Origin: Polyangiaceae bacterium LLY-WYZ-15_(1-7)
Lineage (GTDB): Bacteria > Myxococcota_A > Polyangia > Polyangiales > Houyiibacteriaceae
Assembly (NCBI GenBank): GCA_031800675.1
Contig: DAPKRU010000165.1
Coordinates: 790-64,789 of the forward strand
Length of the DNA stretch: 64,000 nt
Reading direction: 5' to 3'
This document shows, piece after piece, positions 2,021 to 53,231 of this stretch. The translations under genes and the position numbers were made by a program. The notes under the pieces are model-generated. The model ran no database searches, was not told where the DNA came from, and saw only the letters and a list, made by a program, of their open reading frames with translations. Position 1 is the stretch's first letter, and the number at the start of each line of letters is the position of its first letter.

Positions 2021-2212
2021 TCACATCGGGTCTTCGAACTCGTCGGGGGGCGGCGGCTCCTCCATCTCGTCTTCCCCGCCCGTCGTGTAGGTCTCGTCGG
2101 TGGGGGTCGTGCCGTCGTCGGTGCCCTCGGAGCCGCCGTCCCCGCCGCCGCAGGCGACGAAGAGGGGGAGGGCGAGGAGGGTGGCCAGGAGCGTGCGTCG
2201 AAGTCCGGTCAT
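2021..2212 (-). CDS. Small acidic lipoprotein (63 aa), function unknown
   Basis: MTGLRRTLLATLLALPLFVAC-GGGDGG has a signal peptide plus a lipobox-like Cys. The mature part is D/E/T/G/P-rich with no further Cys. Third codon positions are almost all G/C. It lies 89 nt downstream of the DUF2063 gene on the same strand. Confidence 0.6.
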   Translation of the reverse strand: MTGLRRTLLATLLALPLFVACGGGDGGSEGTDDGTTPTDETYTTGGEDEMEEPPPPDEFEDPM

Positions 2213-2301: not shown

Positions 2302-3060
2302 TCAGGCGCGGCTCCCCAGGAGGATACCGCGGCCGAGGAAGTCCTCCAGCAAGCTGGAGAGGCCGTCGATGAAGCGGGCGTCGATGGCGGTGCCGCGGGC
2401 CTGGGCCACGGCCTGGACGGCCTCGGTCATGGTGCGGTCGCCGGGGATCCACGCGCGGAGGAGATCGCGCGCGAGCTCGTTCAGCTCCATGGTCACGGCC
2501 TGGAAGCTCTCCGGGTCGCGGTAGATGCAGAGGTGGAGCGGCGTGGGCTCGTAGCGCTTCGCCTTCTTGCGCGGCACGGTCCAGCCGACCTCCAGGAGGG
2601 TCAGGGCGGGGCTCACGACGGGCGGGCGCTCGAAGCCGAACTCGGGGGCGAGCGGCGGGAGGTCGGCGTCGTCCGCGGACTTCACGGTCCACTCGGCGAG
2701 CTCGTAGCGGGCCAGGTCCGGGAGCCAGCCCTCCTCGCGCGCCTCGAGGCGCGGGGCGAGGTGCGCCGCGAACTGGGCGGGGACCTCGCGGAAGAAGCGC
2801 GTCGAGGGGGGGGCCTCGGCCAGCCAGGAGACGAAGGCCGCCTCGAAGGCCTCGGGGCCGAGGGCCTTCTTCGTGCGGGGGAGGGCGGCGCCGCAGACGC
2901 GGCGGAGCCGGGTGCGGACCATGTTGCGGTAGATGCGCCAGATGCGCGCGTCGCCGAGGCGGGCGAGCTCTTCGTCGCCGGCCTGGGGCGCGAAGCAGAG
3001 GCGGGTCACCTCGGCCTCGTGCTCGACGAGGCTCAGGCCGCTGAGGGCCGGGGCGGTCAC
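2302..3060 (-). CDS. DUF2063-family protein, the partner subunit type found with MNIO/DUF692 enzymes
   Basis: 252 aa. The GTG start (3060-3058) overlaps the TGA stop (3059-3057) of the upstream DUF692 gene as GTGA. Length and sequence character fit DUF2063, and the pairing with DUF692 is the canonical arrangement. Confidence 0.78.
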   Translation of the reverse strand: MTAPALSGLSLVEHEAEVTRLCFAPQAGDEELARLGDARIWRIYRNMVRTRLRRVCGAALPRTKKALGPEAFEAAFVSWLAEAPPSTRFFREVPAQFAAHLAPRLEAREEGWLPDLARYELAEWTVKSADDADLPPLAPEFGFERPPVVSPALTLLEVGWTVPRKKAKRYEPTPLHLCIYRDPESFQAVTMELNELARDLLRAWIPGDRTMTEAVQAVAQARGTAIDARFIDGLSSLLEDFLGRGILLGSRA

Positions 3061-3938
3061 GCGGCCTCCTCGCCGACCGCGTCGCGGTAGATGGCGTTCA
3101 GACGGCGAACCTCGGCGAGGAGCTCGCCGAGGGAGGGGATGTTGTTGTCGCGCTCGAGGAGCACGGGGCGCGGGCCGGTGCGGCGGAGCGTGTAGTCGAG
3201 GAGCTCGTAGACGCCCTCGGGGATGGGCTCGCCGTGCGTGTCGATGCGCAGGCCGTCGTCGCGCACGAGGTGCCCGGCGACGTGCATCTGGACGACGCGC
3301 TCGGGGGGGACCAGGTCGATCCAGGCCTTTGGATCGAAGCCGAAGTTGCGGCTGTTCACGAAGACGTTGTTCACGTCGAGCATGAGCTTGGCGTCGGCGC
3401 GCTCGAGGACCTCGACGCAGAAGCGCGCCTCGTCGAGCGGGTCGGCGGACATGGGCGCGTAGTAGCTGACGTTCTCGAAGGCGAGCTCGCGATCGATGGC
3501 GTCGCGGACCTCCGTGAAGCGCTGCGTGACGGTGTCGAGCGCCTCGTCCGTGAAGGGGATGGGGAGGAGATCGTGGGCGAAGGCGCCGCCCGCGCCGCCG
3601 AAGCAGAGGTGGTCGCTGTGCCAGGGGGTGTCCACGTCGGCGAGGAAGCGCTTCAGCTGGGCGAGGTAGGTGGCGTCGAAGGGCTCGAGCTGGCCGAAGC
3701 AGGTGGTCAGGCCGTGCGTGAGGACCGGGTAGAGGTCCTGGGCGCGCGCGAGGTTCTGCCGGTAGCGGCCGCCGCGGGCGACGTAGTTCTCCGGGTGGAC
3801 CTCGACGAAGGCGACGTCGTCGGGTTTCGCTTCGAGGAAGGCCTGGGCCATGTCGACGCGGAGGCCGAGGCCGATGCCCTGGGGGATGGTGCTCATGGTG
3901 ATCCGGTCGGCGGGGGCGACCCGCTCGGTGGCCGCCAC
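3057..3938 (-). CDS. DUF692 / multinuclear non-heme iron oxidase (MNIO, MbnB/TglH/BufB-type) family protein
   Basis: TIM-barrel DUF692 hallmarks are present: GIGLGLR, FVEVHPENY, THGL, WHSDHLCF, FENVSYY, LDVNNVFVN and HVAGH (candidate metal-ligand His/Glu/Asp). GTG start at 3938; an ATG at 3896 is an alternative. Confidence 0.9.
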   Translation of the reverse strand: MAATERVAPADRITMSTIPQGIGLGLRVDMAQAFLEAKPDDVAFVEVHPENYVARGGRYRQNLARAQDLYPVLTHGLTTCFGQLEPFDATYLAQLKRFLADVDTPWHSDHLCFGGAGGAFAHDLLPIPFTDEALDTVTQRFTEVRDAIDRELAFENVSYYAPMSADPLDEARFCVEVLERADAKLMLDVNNVFVNSRNFGFDPKAWIDLVPPERVVQMHVAGHLVRDDGLRIDTHGEPIPEGVYELLDYTLRRTGPRPVLLERDNNIPSLGELLAEVRRLNAIYRDAVGEEAA

Positions 3939-4055
3939 CCTAGCAGCCGCGTCGCCTGGTCGTCGCGGGTCCCGGAGCCCTACGCGGCGGGCCAGGGTGC
4001 GTTTCGTCTCGCGGGCGTCGGTCAGGGGGCTGCCTCGTCGGGAGCCCCGAAACGC

Positions 4056-4091
4056 GAAACGCCGCGGCGCTCGAGAGCGCCACGGCGTTTC
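4056..4091 (-). terminator. Strong hairpin between the precursor gene and the MNIO gene (candidate attenuator or partial terminator)
   Basis: On the minus-strand RNA: GAAACGCCGUGGCGCUC-UC-GAGCGCCGCGGCGUUUC. The arms are 17 nt with one G-U pair, and GCGUUUCGGGG follows. It lies 22 nt after the precursor stop. Confidence 0.5.
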
Positions 4092-4112
4092 ACGTACGGA
4101 CGAGTCCGCGGC

Positions 4113-4379
4113 TCAGCCGCAGGAGCCCTCGCCGCAGGACGCCTCGCCGGCGCCCTCGGCCTCGCCGCCGCAGCTGGCCTCGCCGCCGCAGGACGCCTCG
4201 GTGCCCTCCTCGGTGGCCTCGCCGCCGCAGGACGCCTCACCGCCGCAGGACGCCTCGGTGGCCTCCTCGCCGCCGGTCGACGACTCCGCCGCCTCGGGCT
4301 CCTCGCTGCCGCCGCCGCAGCCGAAGCCGAGCGCCGCCGTCGCCATCGCCACGAGCGTGGTCTTGAAAGCCGAGTTCAT
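4113..4379 (-). CDS. Secreted (lipobox-like) Cys/Glu-rich repeat peptide, candidate RiPP precursor for the adjacent MNIO/DUF2063 pair
   Basis: 88 aa: MNSAFKTTLVAMATAALGFGC|GGGSEEPEAAESSTGGEEATEASCGGEASCGGEATEEGTEASCGGEASCGGEAEGAGEASCGEGSCG. GGAGG lies 6 nt upstream of the ATG at 4379. It sits directly upstream of and co-directional with the DUF692 gene. Confidence 0.8.
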   Translation of the reverse strand: MNSAFKTTLVAMATAALGFGCGGGSEEPEAAESSTGGEEATEASCGGEASCGGEATEEGTEASCGGEASCGGEAEGAGEASCGEGSCG

Positions 4380-4645
4380 TGCAACCTCCAGGTATTCGGC
4401 GGCGCCGGTGGCCCGCCATCGCATCGTTTCCACTCACCGCGCCCCCGGCATCGGACCCTCGATGGCCCGCGTCCAGTGACGCGCCGCCCCTCAGCGAGGG
4501 CACGGAGAATGAATTGTTGCGGGACGCTACCCCAAGGCCCTTCGCTTCAGCAAGCGCCAGCACGAAAGGCTTTTCCCGGAGCGCCGCCCCGTCCATCGCT
4601 CCCCCCGTATGCCGGCGGGAGGCGATAGTTTCGCCCGGAGCCTCC

Positions 4646-6205
4646 ATGGAGATCGAGAAATCGACGGACGGCCGCGCCGAGGGACCCCATACACGCTCCA
4701 TGGGGTCGCCCGTCGCGCCGCTGATCGTCTCCGCCCTGCTCGGCGTGCTCGCGCTCGGGGGAGCCGGCTGCGGGGCCGCGGCCCGGGGCTCGGCCGAGCG
4801 ATCGCCCGGCGAGCGGAACAGCGCGGGAGGCGGCGCAGACGGCGGCGGAAGCGGCGCCCCGAGCGGCCGGACGAGCGGCGTGCGCTACCTCGTGCGTGCG
4901 GACGCGGCGCTGACGCGCCTGCGGGTCGAGGCCTGCTTCGATGGAGCGCCGCCCGCTCGCATCGCGCCCGCGAGCCGCGACGCGCTCGGGGCGGCCCTCG
5001 AGGTGCGGGGGAGCGACGGCAGGGCCTTCCCGCTCGGCGCCGATGGGGCGCGGCTGGAGGGGCTCGCGCCCGGCGCCTGCGTGCACTACGCGCTCGACCT
5101 CGAGCGGGCGACCTGGGGCCGGGGCGCGGTGCGGAGCGGCGGCGATCTGCTGCTCGCCCAGACCCACTTCCTCTGGCGCCCGGAGCCGATGCCGCGCGGG
5201 CTGGACGTGCGGCTCCGCCTCGAGCTGCCGGAGGGCCTGCACGCCTCGGCGCCCTTCCTGCGCCCCGGCGTCGACGAGCACGTGCTCCGCCCCTCCATCC
5301 TGCGGGTCATCGGGAACGTCGCCTTCGTCCGGGAGCCGCCGCTCCGCTTCGAGGAGGGCGGCGCCGAGGTCGAGGTGGCGCAGCTGCGCGGGGCGCTCCG
5401 GGCCGACCGCGAAGACGTGAAGCGCTGGATCGCCGAGGCCGTGCGCTGCGTCTCGCTCGTGGACGGGCGCTTCCCGCGGGAGCGGCTCCACGTGGTGGTC
5501 GTGCCGGTCGGGCCGGGCGCGCGGCCGGTGGCCTTCGGCCTGGTCCGCCGAGGGGGCGGGCCCTCGGTGATGCTCCTCGCGCACGCGAACGCCGCGCCGG
5601 AGGCGCTGCTCCGGGACTGGACGGCGGTGCACGAGCTCAGCCACCTGGCGATGCCGCGCATGTACGAGGAGGACCGCTGGCTCTCGGAGGGCTTCGCCAC
5701 CTACTACCAGGAGATCCTGCGCGGGCGCGGGGGCCTGCTCTCGGAGGAGGAGGTCTGGGCGCGCTTCCTCGACGGCTTCGACCGGGGCCGGGCCGTGGGC
5801 ACCTCGCGCTCGCTCTGGCGCGAGTCGGCGACGGTCCACCAGACGGGGGCCTATCGGCGCATCTACTGGGCCGGGGCGGCCTACTTCCTCGCGGCGGACG
5901 TGCGGCTCCGGCAGCGCGGCCGGAGCCTGGACGAGCTGGTGGGCGCGGGCCGGGCGCTCTGGGGGCGCCGCGGGGGGGCCTGGGAGGGGCGCGAGGTGCT
6001 CCGGGCCATGGACGCGCGCCTCGAGGCGCCGACGCTGCTGCCGCTGGCCGAGCGCTGGGGCGACGCCCGCGGCTTCCCGGACGTCGAGGCGCTCCTCGAG
6101 GAGCTCGGTGTGCGACGGCGCGGCGACGGCGTCGTGCTGGACGACGCGGCGCCGCTCGCCGCCGTGCGCCGGGCCCTGCTCCGCGCCCCGCTCAGCGCCG
6201 AATGA
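4646..6205 (+). CDS. Gluzincin-type (M1/M61-like) zinc metallopeptidase, probable lipoprotein
   Basis: HELSH followed by WLSEGFATYY (an HExxH...E gluzincin signature). Signal LIVSALLGVLALGGAGC. ATG at 4646 has GGAG 5 nt upstream; ATG at 4700 is an alternative. It is divergent from the precursor gene. Confidence 0.72.
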   Translation: MEIEKSTDGRAEGPHTRSMGSPVAPLIVSALLGVLALGGAGCGAAARGSAERSPGERNSAGGGADGGGSGAPSGRTSGVRYLVRADAALTRLRVEACFDGAPPARIAPASRDALGAALEVRGSDGRAFPLGADGARLEGLAPGACVHYALDLERATWGRGAVRSGGDLLLAQTHFLWRPEPMPRGLDVRLRLELPEGLHASAPFLRPGVDEHVLRPSILRVIGNVAFVREPPLRFEEGGAEVEVAQLRGALRADREDVKRWIAEAVRCVSLVDGRFPRERLHVVVVPVGPGARPVAFGLVRRGGGPSVMLLAHANAAPEALLRDWTAVHELSHLAMPRMYEEDRWLSEGFATYYQEILRGRGGLLSEEEVWARFLDGFDRGRAVGTSRSLWRESATVHQTGAYRRIYWAGAAYFLAADVRLRQRGRSLDELVGAGRALWGRRGGAWEGREVLRAMDARLEAPTLLPLAERWGDARGFPDVEALLEELGVRRRGDGVVLDDAAPLAAVRRALLRAPLSAE

Positions 6206-7661
6206 CGTCGAGGACGAGCGGCTCGAGGCTCGGGGCGCGCCGGCCGATGGTGAAGGCGCCGGCGACGCGCTCGACCACGGAGGCGACCTTCCGCCGCTGC
6301 TTCGGGTGCACGTGGAGGCGCGCGAGGGGCTGGCCCTTCTTCACCTTCTCGCCGGGCTTGGCGTCGATGGTGATGCCCACGGCCGGGTCCACGTCCTGAT
6401 CGCTCCGCGTGCGGCCGGCGCCGAGGGAGACGCTCGACCAGCCGATCTCGAAGGCGTCGATGCCCGTGACGAAGCCTGCCTTCGGCGCCGGGACCTCGAG
6501 GGTGGACTTCGCGATCGCGAGCCGGTCCGGCTCGGCGACGACGCGCGGGTCGCCGCCCTGGGCCTTCACGATCTTCTCCATCACGCGGATCGCCTCGCCG
6601 CTCGCGATGGCGGCCTCGAGCTTCTTCCGCGCGTCCTTCTCCGAGCGCGCCGCGCCGCCGAGGCGGAGCATCTCCACGGCCAGCGCCATGGTGCAGTCGA
6701 TCAGATCCTCCGGGCCCTCGCCGTGGAGCACGCGGAGCGCCTCGGCCGTCTCGATGGCGTTGCCGACCGTGCGCCCGAGCGGCGCGTCCATGCGGGTGAG
6801 GATCGCCGTGACCTTCTTCCCGGCGAGGCGGCCGACGCGGACGATGCTCTTGGCGAGCTCCGTGGCCTGCTCGGGCGTCTTCATGAAGGCGCCCTTGCCG
6901 ACCTTCACGTCGAGCACGAGCGCGTCGATGCCCTCGGCGAGCTTCTTGGAGAGGATGCTCGCCGTGATCAGCGGGACCGACTCGATGGTCGCCGTCACGT
7001 CGCGGAGCGCGTAGAGCTGCCGGTCCGCCGGGGCGAGCTCGGCGGTCTGCTTGAAGAGGGAGCAGCCGACCTTCTTCAGCTGGGAGGCGAAGCGCTTCGT
7101 GCTCATGTCCATGCGGAAGCCCGGGATCGCCTCGAGCTTGTCCACCGTGCCGCCGGTGTGGCCGAGGCCGCGGCCGCTGATCATGGGGACGGGGACGCCG
7201 CAGGCCGCCACGAGCGGGGCGAGGCAGATGCTGACCTTGTCGCCGACGCCGCCCGTGCTGTGCTTGTCGACCTTCACGCCGGGCACGGACGAGAGGTCCA
7301 TGACCGTCCCGCTGTCGCGCATGGCGAGCGTGAGCGCCGCCGTCTCCTTCGGCGTCATGCCGCGGAAGAACGTGGCCATGGCGAAGGCGGCCATCTGGTA
7401 GTCGGTGACGCCGCCGTCGACGTAGCCCTCGACCAGCTGCTGGATCTCCGCCTCGGCGAGGGCGCCTCCGTCGCGCTTCTTGGCGATGAGCTCCGGCGTC
7501 GTCGGGGACGCGGCGGGCTTCTTCGCGGGCGCCTTCGTCGACGCGCGCCGCGTCTTCGCGGGCTTCTTCGCGGGCTTTTTCGCGGGCTTTTTCGCGGGCT
7601 TTTTCGCGGTGCGCTTCGCGGGCTTCTTCGAGGACTTCTTCGCGCTCTTCTTCGCGGCCAT
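6192..7661 (-). CDS. deoA: Thymidine (pyrimidine-nucleoside) phosphorylase with an N-terminal Lys/Ala/Pro-rich tail
   Basis: KHSTGGVGDK, SGRGLGHTGGTVDKLE and the C-terminal PYNP domain are present. The first ~52 aa are AKKP-type repeats. This is the real gene at the 3' end of the spurious 1789-aa ORF. Confidence 0.9.
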   Translation of the reverse strand: MAAKKSAKKSSKKPAKRTAKKPAKKPAKKPAKKPAKTRRASTKAPAKKPAASPTTPELIAKKRDGGALAEAEIQQLVEGYVDGGVTDYQMAAFAMATFFRGMTPKETAALTLAMRDSGTVMDLSSVPGVKVDKHSTGGVGDKVSICLAPLVAACGVPVPMISGRGLGHTGGTVDKLEAIPGFRMDMSTKRFASQLKKVGCSLFKQTAELAPADRQLYALRDVTATIESVPLITASILSKKLAEGIDALVLDVKVGKGAFMKTPEQATELAKSIVRVGRLAGKKVTAILTRMDAPLGRTVGNAIETAEALRVLHGEGPEDLIDCTMALAVEMLRLGGAARSEKDARKKLEAAIASGEAIRVMEKIVKAQGGDPRVVAEPDRLAIAKSTLEVPAPKAGFVTGIDAFEIGWSSVSLGAGRTRSDQDVDPAVGITIDAKPGEKVKKGQPLARLHVHPKQRRKVASVVERVAGAFTIGRRAPSLEPLVLDVIRR

Positions 7662-51795: not shown

Positions 51796-52386
51796 ATGCT
51801 CGAAGACGAAGAGGGAGAGCGGGACGCGCGGAGGCGGAAGCCCACGGTGCGCGAGCTCGCCGTCCCCTCGGACGCGCCCATTCCCTCGGAGCCGATGGGC
51901 ACCCCGGAGCGCGGCATCGAGCGTCGAGGCCCGCGCTCGTCGCCGTCTTCGCCCTCGGGGGCTTCCTCGTCGCGCTCGTCGTCCCCGCCTCCGTCGGAGC
52001 GCATCCTCCGGGTGGACCGCTCGGCCTTTCCGCTGGTCGTGCTCACGCCCGGCCGGGCGGACGACACGGAGGTCGATGGCTACCTCGCGCTCCTCGACGA
52101 GCTCGCGGCCGGGGCGCGCGACGCCGTGGTGCTGGTGGACCTGCGGCTCTGCCTCGCGATCTCGCCGCTCGTGCGGAGGCGCGTCGCCGAGGCCTTCGGC
52201 GAGCGCGGCGAGGCCTGGACGAAGCGGGTCCTCGCGCAGGCCTTCGTGGCCGCGACGCCGGCGCAGCGGGGCGCCGTGACGGCCGTGCAGTGGATGATCG
52301 AGGGCGCGCCGGACTGCCCGATCTTCGAGGACCGAGCGGACGCCGAGGCGTTCCTGAAGAGCGTCCTCGAGCCGCCCTCGGAGTAG
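51796..52386 (+). CDS. Hypothetical protein (disordered S/P-rich N-terminus, folded C-terminal ~120 aa)
   Basis: ATG at 51796 with GGAGG 5 nt upstream. G/C third positions. No family recognised. Confidence 0.5.
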   Translation: MLEDEEGERDARRRKPTVRELAVPSDAPIPSEPMGTPERGIERRGPRSSPSSPSGASSSRSSSPPPSERILRVDRSAFPLVVLTPGRADDTEVDGYLALLDELAAGARDAVVLVDLRLCLAISPLVRRRVAEAFGERGEAWTKRVLAQAFVAATPAQRGAVTAVQWMIEGAPDCPIFEDRADAEAFLKSVLEPPSE

Positions 52387-52397
52387 AGGCGCGCCCC

Positions 52398-53231
52398 TCA
52401 GCGCGCGGCGCGGAGGGCGACGAGTGTGCCGCAGCCGCCGTTGGCTTCGACGCGGGCCTGCGAGCTCATGCGCACGCGGAGGCCGGCGTCGCTCAGGCGC
52501 GCGTAGAGGGCCTCGTAGCGAGCGCGGGAGATCGGCTGAGCGTCCGAGGTGGGCACCGGGTTGTAAGCGTAGAGGTGCACGGCGAGGCCGAGCGGGGCGA
52601 AGCGCGCGGCGAAGGCGTCGACCTCCGCGTCGACGTCATTCTCGCCGGCGAGGACGAGGTAGGCGAGGGCGAGCTTCTTCTTGCGGCGGCGCGAGAGCTC
52701 GGGGAGGGCGGCGCGGAGCGTGGCGACGAGCTCGGCGAGGGAGGGGCCGCGCGGAACGAGGCGCGCGCGGGTCGGCTCGCGGCCGGCGTGCACCGAGAGG
52801 GTGAGCCCGTTGTGGGGGACGTCGCGGAGCCAGCGCTCGAGGCGGCGGAGTGGGCCGCCGCTGGTGGTGAGGCTGGCGGGCGTGCCGCGCTCCTTGGCCC
52901 AGGCGACGAAGCGCGGCGCGTCGGGGGCGTGGAGGGGCTCGCCGACGCCGGAGAGGGTGAGCCGGCGGAGCGGGCCGTGGCGGGCCTCGACGGCCTCGAC
53001 CTGGCCGACGAGCTCCTCGAAGCGGAGCGGCCGCTGGAGGCCCTGCGCGCCGGAGGCGCAGAAGGGGCAGCCGACGGCGCAGCCGACCTGGGAGGAGACG
53101 CAGAGCGTGTCGCCCCGGTAGAGGACGGCTTCGACGCGTGCGCCGTCCGCGAGGCGCACGCCGAAGCGCCGGTTGAAGCGGCTGACCTCTTCGGACTCGA
53201 GGGTGAGGGGGGGCACGGGCAGGGGGGGCAC
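52398..53231 (-). CDS. RlmN/Cfr-family radical SAM methyltransferase, short form
   Basis: TLCVSSQVGCAVGCPFC combines the CxxxCxxC cluster with the upstream Cys. LSGVGEPL, LTLSVHA and the C-terminal GGCGTL Cys are also present. At 277 aa it lacks the usual N-terminal accessory domain. GTG start. Confidence 0.78.
   Translation of the reverse strand: MPPLPVPPLTLESEEVSRFNRRFGVRLADGARVEAVLYRGDTLCVSSQVGCAVGCPFCASGAQGLQRPLRFEELVGQVEAVEARHGPLRRLTLSGVGEPLHAPDAPRFVAWAKERGTPASLTTSGGPLRRLERWLRDVPHNGLTLSVHAGREPTRARLVPRGPSLAELVATLRAALPELSRRRKKKLALAYLVLAGENDVDAEVDAFAARFAPLGLAVHLYAYNPVPTSDAQPISRARYEALYARLSDAGLRVRMSSQARVEANGGCGTLVALRAAR

What the first reader, a model, noticed from the sequence alone, without database searches (positions are those of the whole stretch)
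4113..4379. Precursor peptide: lipobox-like signal plus six Cys, all in an SCG context within EASCGGE repeats
The sequence is MNSAFKTTLVAMATAALGFGC|GGGSEEPEAAESSTGGEEATEASCGGEASCGGEATEEGTEASCGGEASCGGEAEGAGEASCGEGSCG.

Counts, made by hand:
- The 67-aa region after Cys21 uses only G, S, E, A, T, P and C.
- That region has 17 Glu and no basic or large hydrophobic residue.
- It has 6 Cys, each preceded by Ser and followed by Gly.

Interpretation:
- Cys followed by a small residue is the context modified by MbnB-type enzymes.
- The signal ends ...ALGFG-C-GGG, resembling the many xxxC-GG(D/G) lipoprotein signals of neighbouring genes.
- The product may therefore be a membrane-tethered, lipidated modified peptide. 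As far as I know, that has not been described for MNIO products.
Basis: partly seen in the sequence, partly recalled or inferred. Interest (0 to 1): 0.8.

Follow-up and report, generated by a model that had tools for sequence, protein, structure and literature searches.

The report
Lipid-anchored copper-peptide precursor, myxobacterial variant
This is a real small gene for a secreted, probably lipid-anchored, cysteine-repeat peptide that neighbouring iron enzymes most likely turn into a metal-binding natural product; lipid-anchored products of this kind were shown experimentally in 2025-26, so this is an undescribed myxobacterial variant, not a new principle.

Summary
The minus strand at 4379-4113 encodes the 88-aa peptide exactly as written, with 17 Glu and six core Cys, all in S-C-G.

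It heads an operon: precursor, hairpin, MNIO enzyme, HvfC-type partner (4-nt overlap with the MNIO gene), small lipoprotein.

At least 384 homologues exist. Every one that a source names is from Myxococcota. All 104 sequences examined keep a lipobox Cys. Core Cys number ranges from 1 to 6, and the consensus motif is E-[A/G]-S-C-[G/S].

This is the oxazolin/captophorin unit EGKCG with Lys replaced by Ser. 50 of 93 family members hit the curated HvfA-family model, but the window peptide does not.

The enzyme's substrate-reading residues differ from Lys-Cys enzymes: RV instead of RR, and DN instead of DF.

PNAS 2026 (preprint 2025) showed triacylated, MNIO-modified NedA, a lipobox oxazolin.

New leads:
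- The subfamily is polyanionic and Ser-Cys, and a lipobox is the rule in Myxococcota.
- The signal peptide is more conserved than the enzyme.
- An M61-type metallopeptidase is a frequent neighbour.

Verdict: a new variant of a known kind, of moderate interest. Lipidation, the modification and metal binding are all inferred, not shown.

The parts
4113..4379 (-). Precursor gene, 88 aa plus stop. Signal peptide is residues 1-20 (4379-4320). Lipobox Cys21 is the codon 4319-4317. The core, residues 22-88 (4316-4116), has three Cys pairs: 45/51, 64/70 and 82/87.
   Evidence: Translation. Composition and Cys contexts. Cys spacing 6, 6, 5. Family conservation. Called as an 88-aa gene in public assemblies.
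4385..4389 (-). Shine-Dalgarno GGAGG, 5 nt upstream of the ATG at 4379.
   Evidence: Read directly from the sequence.
4049..4095 (-). GC-rich hairpin of about 20 bp with a 4-nt loop, followed by UUUCGGGG. It starts about 18 nt after the precursor stop, inside the 174-nt spacer before the MNIO gene. It is a candidate partial terminator or mRNA stabiliser that would give more precursor than enzyme transcript.
   Evidence: RNA fold of 4115-3935: -104.2 kcal/mol, z = -4.1, 0 of 200 shuffles fold as well. Hairpins in the same position but with different sequences occur in almost all 28 related loci examined, many followed by U-rich tails. The simple terminator scan did not flag it because the U-tail is weak.
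3057..3938 (-). MNIO (DUF692) enzyme, 293 aa, HvfB/BufB-like, with no signal peptide.
   Evidence: PF05114, 303.5 bits over the full length. NCBIfam HvfB 284.9 bits (cutoff 360) and BufB 263.2 bits (cutoff 310). PDB 3BWW E 1.7e-51. The substrate-reading sites read RV and DN, against RR and DF in 3BWW.
2302..3060 (-). HvfC-type partner protein (DUF2063 plus NGO1945_C; the RRE-containing 'PME1' partner), 252 aa. Its start overlaps the MNIO stop by 4 nt.
   Evidence: PF09836 41.2 bits and PF22106 34.9 bits, both above cutoff. NCBIfam RiPP_RRE_HvfC 90.1 bits, below the cutoff of 142. Found directly downstream of the MNIO gene in nearly all 80 loci.
2021..2212 (-). Small acidic lipoprotein, 63 aa (lipobox LFVAC|GGG), with no Cys other than the lipobox Cys. 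It lies 89 nt downstream of the HvfC gene. Whether it belongs to the system is uncertain.
   Evidence: Translation. Called as a 63-aa gene in three assemblies. tblastn homologues only in L006, L008 and L010.
4700..6205 (+). Divergently transcribed M61/M1-fold zinc metallopeptidase, 501 aa, with a lipobox signal (LGGAGC|G) and HELSH...E. It is a frequent but not obligatory neighbour, and a possible accessory.
   Evidence: Start and signal. 29 of 35 homologues hit PF05299. H312, E313, H316 and E331 are invariant. AF2 model pLDDT 91.1. Foldseek top hit 7XYO, an M61 aminopeptidase, E 1e-17. Co-occurrence 30/15/3/11. Retained in Nannocystaceae-type loci that lack the housekeeping flanks. Six of seven homologues sampled without reference to MNIO have no MNIO nearby.

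Best explanation
The gene encodes the precursor of a lipoprotein-type captophorin (oxazolin-like metallophore), that is, a 'DAG-RiPP'.

Proposed sequence of events:
1. The operon is transcribed from upstream of 4389. A strong hairpin after the precursor stop probably makes precursor mRNA more abundant than enzyme mRNA.
2. In the cytoplasm, the MNIO enzyme and its translationally coupled HvfC-type partner oxidise each of the six Ser-Cys-Gly cysteines. The cysteines are arranged as three pairs. The product at each is a 5-thiooxazole (called oxazolone-thioamide in the older assignment), a change of -4 Da per Cys, or about -24 Da in total. The lipobox Cys21 sits in a G-C-G context with no Glu-x-Ser ahead of it, and is spared.
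3. The peptide is exported by Sec. Lgt adds diacylglycerol to Cys21, signal peptidase II cleaves before it, and Lnt N-acylates it.
4. The mature product is a 68-residue triacylated polyanion with no basic residue. It is tethered to a membrane facing the periplasm, or beyond. With Gly at +2 it probably goes to the outer membrane. About half of the family has Lys at +2, which marks inner-membrane lipoproteins in Myxococcus xanthus.
5. The heterocycle pairs chelate copper, buffering it at the envelope.

Shown here: the gene is real, the operon architecture, family-wide conservation of the lipobox and the E-[A/G]-S-C-[G/S] motif, the enzyme families, and the sequence link to the HvfA family.

Inferred from published work on homologues: the chemistry, the order of the steps, lipidation and metal binding.
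For: Gene and operon.

Family:
- 104 of 104 sequences match the lipobox pattern, with the Cys at position 21-25.
- 403 of 417 core Cys are preceded by Ser, and 344 are followed by Gly.
- The C-terminal EASCGEGSCG is nearly invariant.

Sampling through the MNIO, independent of the peptide: 45 of 59 fully flanked myxobacterial loci encode a lipobox xCG peptide within 3 kb, and an HvfC gene follows the MNIO gene almost everywhere.

Link to oxazolins:
- EASCGEGSCG corresponds to HvfA's AEGKCGEGKCG, in which all six Cys carry a -4 Da modification (PMC11252979).
- Members P0016, P0025, P0091 and the L009 peptide contain a literal EGKCG.
- 50 of 93 members hit NCBIfam NF050137, the HvfA-family domain. 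One pure-SCG member scores 25.7 bits against a cutoff of 19.5.
- The three Cys pairs mirror HvfA's three repeats.

Enzyme specificity sites track the changed motif. FonB Arg16 and Phe250 read Glu1 and Lys3/Gly5 (PMC13097082). The window enzyme has Val and Asn at those sites, and none of the 80 myxobacterial enzymes keeps RR or DF.

Precedent for lipidation together with modification: NedA and DybA are triacylated and MNIO-modified, and the MNIOs in such clusters lack secretion signals (PMC13056109). The MNIO and HvfC here also lack signals.

Chemistry and copper role of MNIO plus DUF2063-partner products: PMC13097082 and PMC12452194.

The +2 Lys rule: PMC3222651.
Against: - The window peptide itself gives no hit to the HvfA-family models. 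Two of its Cys pairs have a spacing of 6 (CGGEASC), not 5.
- The MNIO and HvfC proteins score below the equivalog cutoffs for HvfB, BufB and HvfC, so identical chemistry is not guaranteed.
- The lipobox is atypical (G-F-G-C, against the classical L-[AST]-[GA]-C). G-F-G|C also satisfies the -3/-1 rule of signal peptidase I.
- No SignalP or LipoP run was possible.
- No copper-related gene, DoxX gene or regulator lies nearby, so the metal assignment rests on homology alone.
- The peptide is strongly acidic whereas oxazolins are Lys-rich, which might change the metal or the role.
- Unmodified HvfA also binds Cu(I) (PMC11252979), so modification is not strictly needed for binding.
Confidence: 0.7

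Rival explanations
1. Same MNIO chemistry, but the peptide is a soluble periplasmic captophorin. Signal peptidase I cleaves at or near G-F-G|C and Cys21 is not acylated. Cys21 would then be just the N-terminal residue, or an extra thiol ligand.
For: Most characterised oxazolins and bufferins use SPI signals (PMC11252979, PMC12452194). The window lipobox G-F-G-C lacks the canonical Leu at -3, and its small residues at -3 and -1 would also suit SPI.
Against: A Cys at the end of the h-region is invariant in 104 of 104 family members and also appears in the more distant Nannocystis and Labilithrix precursors. SPI substrates have no reason to conserve Cys at +1. All members match the PS51257-type pattern. 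A lipobox oxazolin (NedA) was shown to be triacylated (PMC13056109).
Confidence: 0.12
2. Lipidated and MNIO-modified as proposed, but its role is not copper buffering. The polyanionic tail and the heterocycles could serve another metal or another envelope function, such as export of metal in outer-membrane vesicles, sequestration of a different cation, or a predation or surface role.
For: The charge is inverted relative to oxazolins: -17 with no basic residue, and the family averages 13.9 acidic against 2.3 basic residues. There is no DoxX, cop/cus gene or metal regulator in the neighbourhood. The source appears to be a widespread marine organism. PMC13056109 itself raises OMV export as a possibility.
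Against: All characterised products of MNIO enzymes with a DUF2063-type partner bind copper and are tied to copper stress (PMC13097082, PMC12452194, PMC11252979). Charge is not conserved across the myxobacterial precursors: the Nannocystis ones are Lys-rich. This argues that the Cys motif is the functional core, not the acidity.
Confidence: 0.2
3. The peptide is an ordinary small lipoprotein that binds metal through free thiols, and the MNIO/HvfC pair acts on some other substrate.
For: Unmodified HvfA binds several Cu(I) ions (PMC11252979). L003-L005 carry MNIO/HvfC pairs 71-74% identical to the window's without any such peptide within 6 kb. So the enzymes can exist apart from an adjacent precursor.
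Against: The peptide sits immediately upstream of the MNIO gene, on the same strand, in most loci across MNIO identities of 75-46%. Its Cys motif is the experimentally modified oxazolin unit with one substitution. The enzyme's specificity residues differ from those of Lys-Cys enzymes in step with the motif.
Confidence: 0.05
4. It is a spurious ORF, or a low-complexity artefact of a 75% G+C repeat.
For: Very high G+C, low-complexity composition, an internal DNA repeat, and no Pfam or NCBIfam hit for the window peptide.
Against: A consensus SD and an ATG start. Hundreds of homologues with a conserved frame, start and C-terminus. Synonymous variation at conserved residues. A fixed position upstream of the MNIO gene.
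Confidence: 0.01

Closest known systems
Lipidated oxazolin NedA/NedBC of Neisseria dentiae, a 'DAG-RiPP' (PMC13056109)
   Same: - SPII/lipobox signal directly followed by a short linker and repeated E-x-x-C-G motifs.
- Adjacent MNIO plus DUF2063/RRE partner, neither with a signal peptide.
- Expected -4 Da per motif Cys, with the lipobox Cys spared and triacylated.
   Different: - Motif is E-[A/G]-S-C-G, not EGKCG.
- Six Cys in three pairs, two of them with a spacing of 6.
- Strongly acidic with no basic residue.
- Myxococcota, not Neisseriales.
- In Myxococcota the lipobox is the rule (45 of 59 loci), not a minority.
- No experimental data exist for this peptide.
Oxazolin HvfA/HvfBC of Haemophilus influenzae; fontiphorin and gonophorin; the captophorin 'Lys-Cys' group (PMC11252979, PMC13097082)
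   Same: - Three tandem Cys pairs (HvfA: three AEGKCGEGKCG; here the C-terminal EASCGEGSCG plus two EASCGGEASCG).
- HvfB is the best-scoring enzyme model.
- Operon of precursor, MNIO and HvfC.
- Sec-dependent export.
   Different: - SPI signal in HvfA, against a lipobox here.
- Lys at -1 of the Cys there, Ser here.
- Enzyme sites RR and DF (3BWW) there, RV and DN here.
- DoxX (HvfX) is present there and absent here.
- The window peptide does not reach the NF050137 or NF050188 models.
Bufferins Buf1 (DUF2282) and Buf2, with BufB/BufC (PMC11626156, PMC12452194)
   Same: - MNIO plus DUF2063 partner.
- Sec signal peptide on the precursor.
- Cys converted to 5-thiooxazole.
- Periplasmic copper chelation.
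- About 16% of Buf2 members are predicted to be lipoproteins.
   Different: - Bufferins are folded small domains with a fixed Cys pattern, not low-complexity repeats.
- The window precursor has no DUF2282 hit.
- The BufB model scores lower than HvfB (263 against 285 bits).
Methanobactin MbnA/MbnBC
   Same: An MNIO-family enzyme modifies Cys to give a copper-binding heterocycle.
   Different: - The MbnB model scores only 38 bits (cutoff 325).
- The partner is MbnC, not DUF2063.
- The precursor has a leader peptide, not a signal peptide.
- The product is a secreted chalkophore.

Membership tests
MNIO superfamily (PF05114, MbnB_TglH_ChrH) | Full-length match to the Pfam model above its gathering score | tested here: met
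   303.5 bits against a cutoff of 25, covering 1-261 of 263 model positions.
HvfB equivalog (NCBIfam NF003818) and BufB equivalog (NF050167) | Score above the curated equivalog cutoff | tested here: not met
   HvfB 284.9 bits (cutoff 360); BufB 263.2 bits (cutoff 310). They are the two best models, but both fall below cutoff. The enzyme is a related, distinct clade.
Captophorin 'Lys-Cys' MNIO subgroup (PMC13097082) | Arg-Arg at the FonB 15/16 site and Asp-Phe at the FonB 249/250 site | tested here: not met
   The window enzyme has R-V and D-N, while 3BWW has R-R and D-F. None of the 80 myxobacterial homologues has RR or DF. The catalytic Asp is kept in 78 of the 80; the pattern was not located in the other two.
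HvfC / PME1 partner (DUF2063 plus NGO1945_C) | Both Pfam domains above cutoff, and the gene adjacent to an MNIO gene | tested here: met
   PF09836 41.2 bits (cutoff 27.2) and PF22106 34.9 bits (cutoff 27). 4-nt overlap with the MNIO gene. The NCBIfam HvfC equivalog scores 90.1 bits, below its cutoff of 142.
HvfA-family oxazolin precursor (NCBIfam NF050137, KCGExKCG_twice) | Score of at least 19.5 bits on the domain model | tested here: not met
   The window peptide has no hit at E <= 1 or E <= 0.01. 50 of 93 homologues do hit at E <= 0.01, and one pure-SCG member scores 25.7 bits. The window peptide is therefore a homologue of members, but is not itself recognised.
HvfA-family oxazolin precursor | Repeated E-G-K-C-G units in tandem pairs, each Cys modified | tested here: inconclusive
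   The units are E-A-S-C-G and E-G-S-C-G, in three pairs with spacings 6, 6 and 5. A literal EGKCG occurs in a few family members. The modification itself cannot be tested with these tools.
DAG-RiPP (RiPP-lipoprotein hybrid, PMC13056109) | Lipoprotein (SPII) signal with a lipobox Cys on a RiPP precursor | tested here: met
   This is a pattern-level test only. A PS51257-type regular expression matches 104 of 104 sequences, with an invariant Cys at position 21-25. SignalP and LipoP were not available.
DAG-RiPP | Diacylglyceryl and N-acyl modification of the +1 Cys on the mature, enzyme-modified peptide | not testable with these tools
   This needs MS of membrane fractions, globomycin treatment and a C21 mutant.
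Bufferin Buf1 (DUF2282) | Pfam DUF2282 match | tested here: not met
   No Pfam family at E <= 1 for the precursor.
Methanobactin system | MbnB equivalog plus MbnA/MbnC | tested here: not met
   MbnB model 38.1 bits against a cutoff of 325. The partner is HvfC-type, not MbnC.

The most novel reading that the evidence does not exclude
The nearly frozen signal peptide (MNSALKHTxxAMATAAL) is more conserved than the enzyme and is under protein-level selection. It may be both the Sec/SPII signal and the leader read by the HvfC-type recognition domain, or a signal tuned to delay export until all Cys are modified. The co-located M61-fold lipoprotein peptidase may then trim the anchored polyanionic metallophore or shed it from its lipid anchor. 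That would make a 'tethered pro-metallophore with controlled release', a maturation logic not described for MNIO products.
Probability: 0.12. Interest if true: 0.7.

Novelty: new variant of a known kind. Interest (0 to 1): 0.36.

Why it matters
Lipid-anchored RiPPs were recognised only in 2025-26, and only two have been shown experimentally, both by expression in E. coli. This locus shows that in a whole phylum (Myxococcota, including cultured Nannocystis and Labilithrix and an apparently widespread marine lineage) the lipoprotein route is the normal way of making oxazolin-like peptides.

It also shows a natural Lys-to-Ser change in the modified motif, accompanied by changes at the two enzyme positions published as specificity determinants. 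That gives a ready-made natural experiment on how these iron enzymes choose their cysteines.

It offers cultured hosts in which the location, shedding and metal role of a native lipidated captophorin could be tested.

It does not overturn anything.

Tried and rejected
- **Family scans of the window peptide.** Pfam and NCBIfam gave nothing. The link to HvfA came only through homologues.
- **Terminator scan.** The simple consensus scan missed the post-precursor hairpin; folding found it.
- **Second precursor or MNIO in the window.** None found. The motif hit at 52358-52801 is an Arg-rich spurious frame.
- **L003-L005.** These MNIOs are 71-74% identical to the window's, but no xSCG peptide lies within 6 kb. 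Upstream there is a divergent secreted protein beginning AHAHLHLVAP.... I left this unexplained.
- **Structure of the M61-like protein.** The single-sequence AF2 model was useless (pLDDT 39.6). An alignment of database homologues worked.
- **Obligatory M61 partner: rejected.** 15 of 45 precursor loci lack the M61-like gene. Six of seven M61 homologues sampled without reference to MNIO have no MNIO nearby.
- **Small 63-aa lipoprotein as a conserved member: not supported.** It has homologues in only 3 loci.
- **DNA-level explanation for the conserved signal: rejected.** The synonymous variation rules it out.
- **Supplementary data.** The supplements of PMC13056109 are not held. So I could not check whether these myxobacterial peptides are already in its list of predicted RiPP-lipoproteins.
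- **Literature.** Searches linking MNIO to Nannocystis, Sandaracinus, Labilithrix or Polyangiales found nothing.
Full report
**1. The observation**

The coordinates are right, but the gene is on the minus strand. The plus strand of the same coordinates is a meaningless Ala/Gly/Leu/Arg frame.

The hand counts are correct. The 67 residues after Cys21 are G19 E17 A11 S9 C6 T4 P1. All six core Cys are in S-C-G.

A GGAGG lies 5 nt upstream of the ATG.

The gene contains an 18-nt repeat nested in a 57-nt (19-aa) duplication. That duplication explains why it has six core Cys where its closest relatives have five.

The window is 70-79% G+C.

**2. The surroundings**

On the same strand the precursor is followed by:
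- a 174-nt spacer;
- a 293-aa MNIO enzyme (PF05114, 303.5 bits);
- a 252-aa protein with DUF2063 and NGO1945_C domains, which overlaps the MNIO gene by 4 nt. This is the HvfC/'PME1' partner that carries the RiPP recognition element.

The best NCBIfam models for the enzyme are HvfB (284.9 bits) and BufB (263.2 bits). Both are below their equivalog cutoffs. MbnB scores only 38 bits. So 'MbnB-type' is imprecise.

Neither enzyme has a signal peptide.

A 63-aa acidic lipoprotein follows. A 501-aa lipobox-bearing HExxH protein is transcribed divergently.

The flanks are housekeeping genes: PP2C, acyl-CoA dehydrogenase, thymidine phosphorylase, RNase R and a BamB-like propeller. There is no room for a DoxX gene.

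Public gene calls on three assemblies that carry the identical peptide give the same five genes. The peptide is listed in 123 blocks of the collection, including a Tara Oceans marine metagenome and the NCBI MAG GCA_031800595.1.

**3. The hairpin after the precursor**

The spacer after the precursor folds into a ~20-bp GC hairpin followed by UUUCGGGG (z = -4.1).

Hairpins in the same place, with different sequences and often with U-rich tails, occur in almost all 28 related loci examined.

I read this as an intra-operon attenuator or stabiliser that raises the ratio of precursor to enzyme. That reading is an inference.

**4. The peptide family**

A single-sequence search found 103 homologues. 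A profile search found 384. Every one that a source names is from Myxococcota (Polyangiales, Sandaracinaceae and similar).

- All 104 sequences match a PROSITE PS51257-type lipobox pattern. The Cys is at position 21-25 and is an invariant alignment column.
- Core Cys number ranges from 1 to 6, with a mode of 4.
- Core Cys contexts are EASCG (175), EGSCG (143), EASCS (42) and EGSCS (14).
- The C-terminal EASCGEGSCG is nearly invariant.

To avoid ascertainment through the peptide, I also collected 80 loci through the MNIO protein. All are from Myxococcota, with 75-46% MNIO identity.

Most encode a lipobox peptide with xSCG motifs just upstream, and an HvfC gene just downstream. Among 59 loci with at least 3 kb on both sides, 45 have such a precursor.

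More distant clades keep the lipobox and the [A/G/D]-[G/A]-S-C-G repeats but change everything else. Nannocystis has a Lys-rich peptide: MNVKHIAATLAILGSASFAVTGC|KKN...DGSCGANKDGSCG. Labilithrix and some Polyangiaceae have Ala/Pro/Lys-rich peptides of 140-160 aa.

So the conserved core of the system in this phylum is the lipobox plus S-C-G, not the acidity.

**5. Relation to known systems**

In HvfA (oxazolin) the modified unit is AEGKCGEGKCG. It occurs three times, and each of the six Cys carries a -4 Da modification that requires both HvfB and HvfC (PMC11252979).

The family's EASCGEGSCG is that unit with Lys replaced by Ser. The window's three Cys pairs (45/51, 64/70, 82/87) mirror HvfA's three repeats.

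A few family members contain a literal EGKCG.

The curated NCBIfam model NF050137 ('KCGExKCG_twice', HvfA family, cutoff 19.5 bits) is hit by 50 of 93 family members. One member with only SCG motifs scores 25.7 bits. The window peptide itself is not hit. The likely reason is that two of its pairs have a spacing of 6 (CGGEASC) where the model expects 5.

The chemistry has since been revised to 5-thiooxazole. The class of products made by an MNIO with a DUF2063-type partner is now named captophorins and is tied to copper detoxification (PMC13097082).

That paper names FonB Arg15/Arg16 (contact with Glu1), Phe250 (contact with Lys3 and Gly5) and Asp249 (catalytic base) as determinants of specificity. 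Aligned to the solved homologue 3BWW, the window enzyme reads R-V and D-N where 3BWW reads R-R and D-F. None of the 80 myxobacterial enzymes has RR or DF.

The enzyme has therefore changed at the positions expected to read the residue that changed in the substrate.

**6. The lipid question**

It is now described.

- PMC13056109 (bioRxiv Oct 2025, PNAS Mar 2026) defines DAG-RiPPs. It shows triacylated, MNIO-modified DybA.
- Closest to this case, it shows triacylated NedA, a Neisseria dentiae oxazolin with an SPII signal and three EGKCG motifs (-12 Da).
- It reports that subsets of bufferins and oxazolins have SPII signals, and that the MNIOs in such clusters lack secretion signals.
- PMC12452194 had already noted that about 16% of Buf2 bufferins have lipoprotein signals.

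For this peptide, lipidation remains a prediction. The invariant Cys argues strongly for it. Against it, G-F-G-C is not a textbook lipobox and would also fit the -3/-1 rule of signal peptidase I.

In M. xanthus, Lys at +2 marks inner-membrane lipoproteins (PMC3222651). In this family the +2 residue is Lys in 53 sequences, Gly in 21 (the window among them) and Ser in 20. Different members may therefore sit in different membranes. This is an inference.

**7. What looks new**

(a) In Myxococcota the lipobox is the rule for this precursor type. The motif is Ser-Cys, which is not one of the three large precursor groups (DUF2282, Lys-Cys, Cys-Lys) listed in PMC13097082. No searchable paper links MNIOs with these genera.

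(b) The signal peptide is unusually constrained.
- In 21 MNIO-anchored loci its mean pairwise identity is 0.75, against 0.65 for the MNIO protein and 0.59 for the core.
- It exceeds the MNIO identity in 87% of pairs.
- 41% of identical-residue codon pairs differ synonymously, so the selection acts on the protein.
- The M61-like lipoprotein's own signal peptides in the same genomes share about 18% identity.
- In HvfA the signal is dispensable for modification (PMC11252979).

What constrains the signal here is unknown. It could be recognition by HvfC, or export timing.

(c) The divergent neighbour is an M61/M1-fold zinc peptidase.
- 29 of 35 homologues hit PF05299.
- The HExxH...E residues are invariant.
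- The AF2 model has pLDDT 91.
- The Foldseek top hit is the M61 aminopeptidase 7XYO (E 1e-17).
- It lies within 6 kb of the MNIO gene in 30 of the 45 precursor-bearing loci, against 3 of the 14 without a precursor (Fisher p = 0.005, not corrected for phylogeny).
- It stays attached, on the same strand, in Nannocystaceae-type loci where the housekeeping neighbours are gone.

The link is not obligatory. Six of seven homologues sampled from the peptidase side have no MNIO nearby. An aminopeptidase would also not be expected to act on an N-acylated terminus. I treat it as a lead only.

**8. Verdict**

It is best described as an undescribed Ser-Cys, polyanionic, myxobacterial variant of the lipidated oxazolin/captophorin kind.

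It works like NedA. It is not formally a member of the HvfA, HvfB or HvfC equivalog families by the curated thresholds.

The chemistry, the lipidation and the metal role are inferred from homologues and need the experiments listed under next steps.

Noticed in passing
window 4700-6205 (+): A divergent lipobox-bearing M61/M1-fold zinc metallopeptidase (HELSH...E). It is a frequent neighbour of the precursor/MNIO/HvfC set across Myxococcota, and lies on the same strand directly upstream of the precursor in Nannocystis. It is absent from a third of precursor loci. Six of seven homologues sampled from the peptidase side are unlinked to any MNIO. It may be a processing or shedding enzyme.
   Followed up: yes
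window 4049-4095 (-), and the precursor-MNIO spacers of L001-L077: A strong GC hairpin directly after the precursor stop codon. It is conserved in position but not in sequence across almost all related loci, and is often followed by a U-rich tail. It is probably an intra-operon attenuator or stabiliser.
   Followed up: partly
window 4320-4379 (-); precursors in L001-L035: The signal peptide MNSALKHTxxAMATAAL is more conserved than the MNIO enzyme (0.75 against 0.65 mean pairwise identity), with abundant synonymous variation. The neighbouring lipoprotein's signal peptides share about 18% identity in the same genomes. The cause is unknown.
   Followed up: partly
window 3057-3938 (-); the MNIO genes of L001-L080: At the two published substrate-specificity sites (FonB Arg16 and Phe250) all 80 myxobacterial MNIOs differ from the Lys-Cys type. 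They read R-x, not RR, and D-[N/Q/G/D/E/R/H], never D-F. The residue after the catalytic Asp seems to vary with the precursor type: N with EASCG, E with the Nannocystis DGSCGxK type, R with KAEGSCSG.
   Followed up: partly
L003, L004, L005 (MNIO at about 6001-6860): MNIO/HvfC pairs 71-74% identical to the window's have no xSCG peptide and no M61-like gene within 6 kb. In L003 the upstream divergent gene (5208-6068, minus strand) encodes a secreted protein whose mature N-terminus would begin HLHLVAPAARDGG. That could be a His-brace-like copper protein; I did not check.
   Followed up: no
window 2021-2212 (-): A 63-aa very acidic lipoprotein (LFVAC|GGGDGG...) with no other Cys, 89 nt downstream of the HvfC gene. 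It is called as a gene in public assemblies, but has homologues in only three related loci.
   Followed up: partly
family P0001-P0103: The residue after the lipobox Cys splits the family: Lys in 53, Gly in 21 and Ser in 20. In M. xanthus, Lys at +2 marks inner-membrane lipoproteins, so subfamilies may be sorted to different membranes. The window peptide has Gly.
   Followed up: partly
L008 and L010; contigs carrying P0005+P0026, P0018+P0027, P0007+P0025: Some genomes appear to carry two different precursor paralogues. In L008 and L010, two different lipobox peptides (MNSTLK... and MTSLSLK...) lie within 3 kb of the same MNIO gene. The P-pairs listed share a reported contig length.
   Followed up: no
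L081-L083 (same locus as the window): The identical 88-aa peptide is listed in 123 blocks of public assemblies, including a Tara Oceans marine metagenome and the NCBI MAG GCA_031800595.1. The source organism seems to be an environmentally widespread, uncultured marine myxobacterium.
   Followed up: partly
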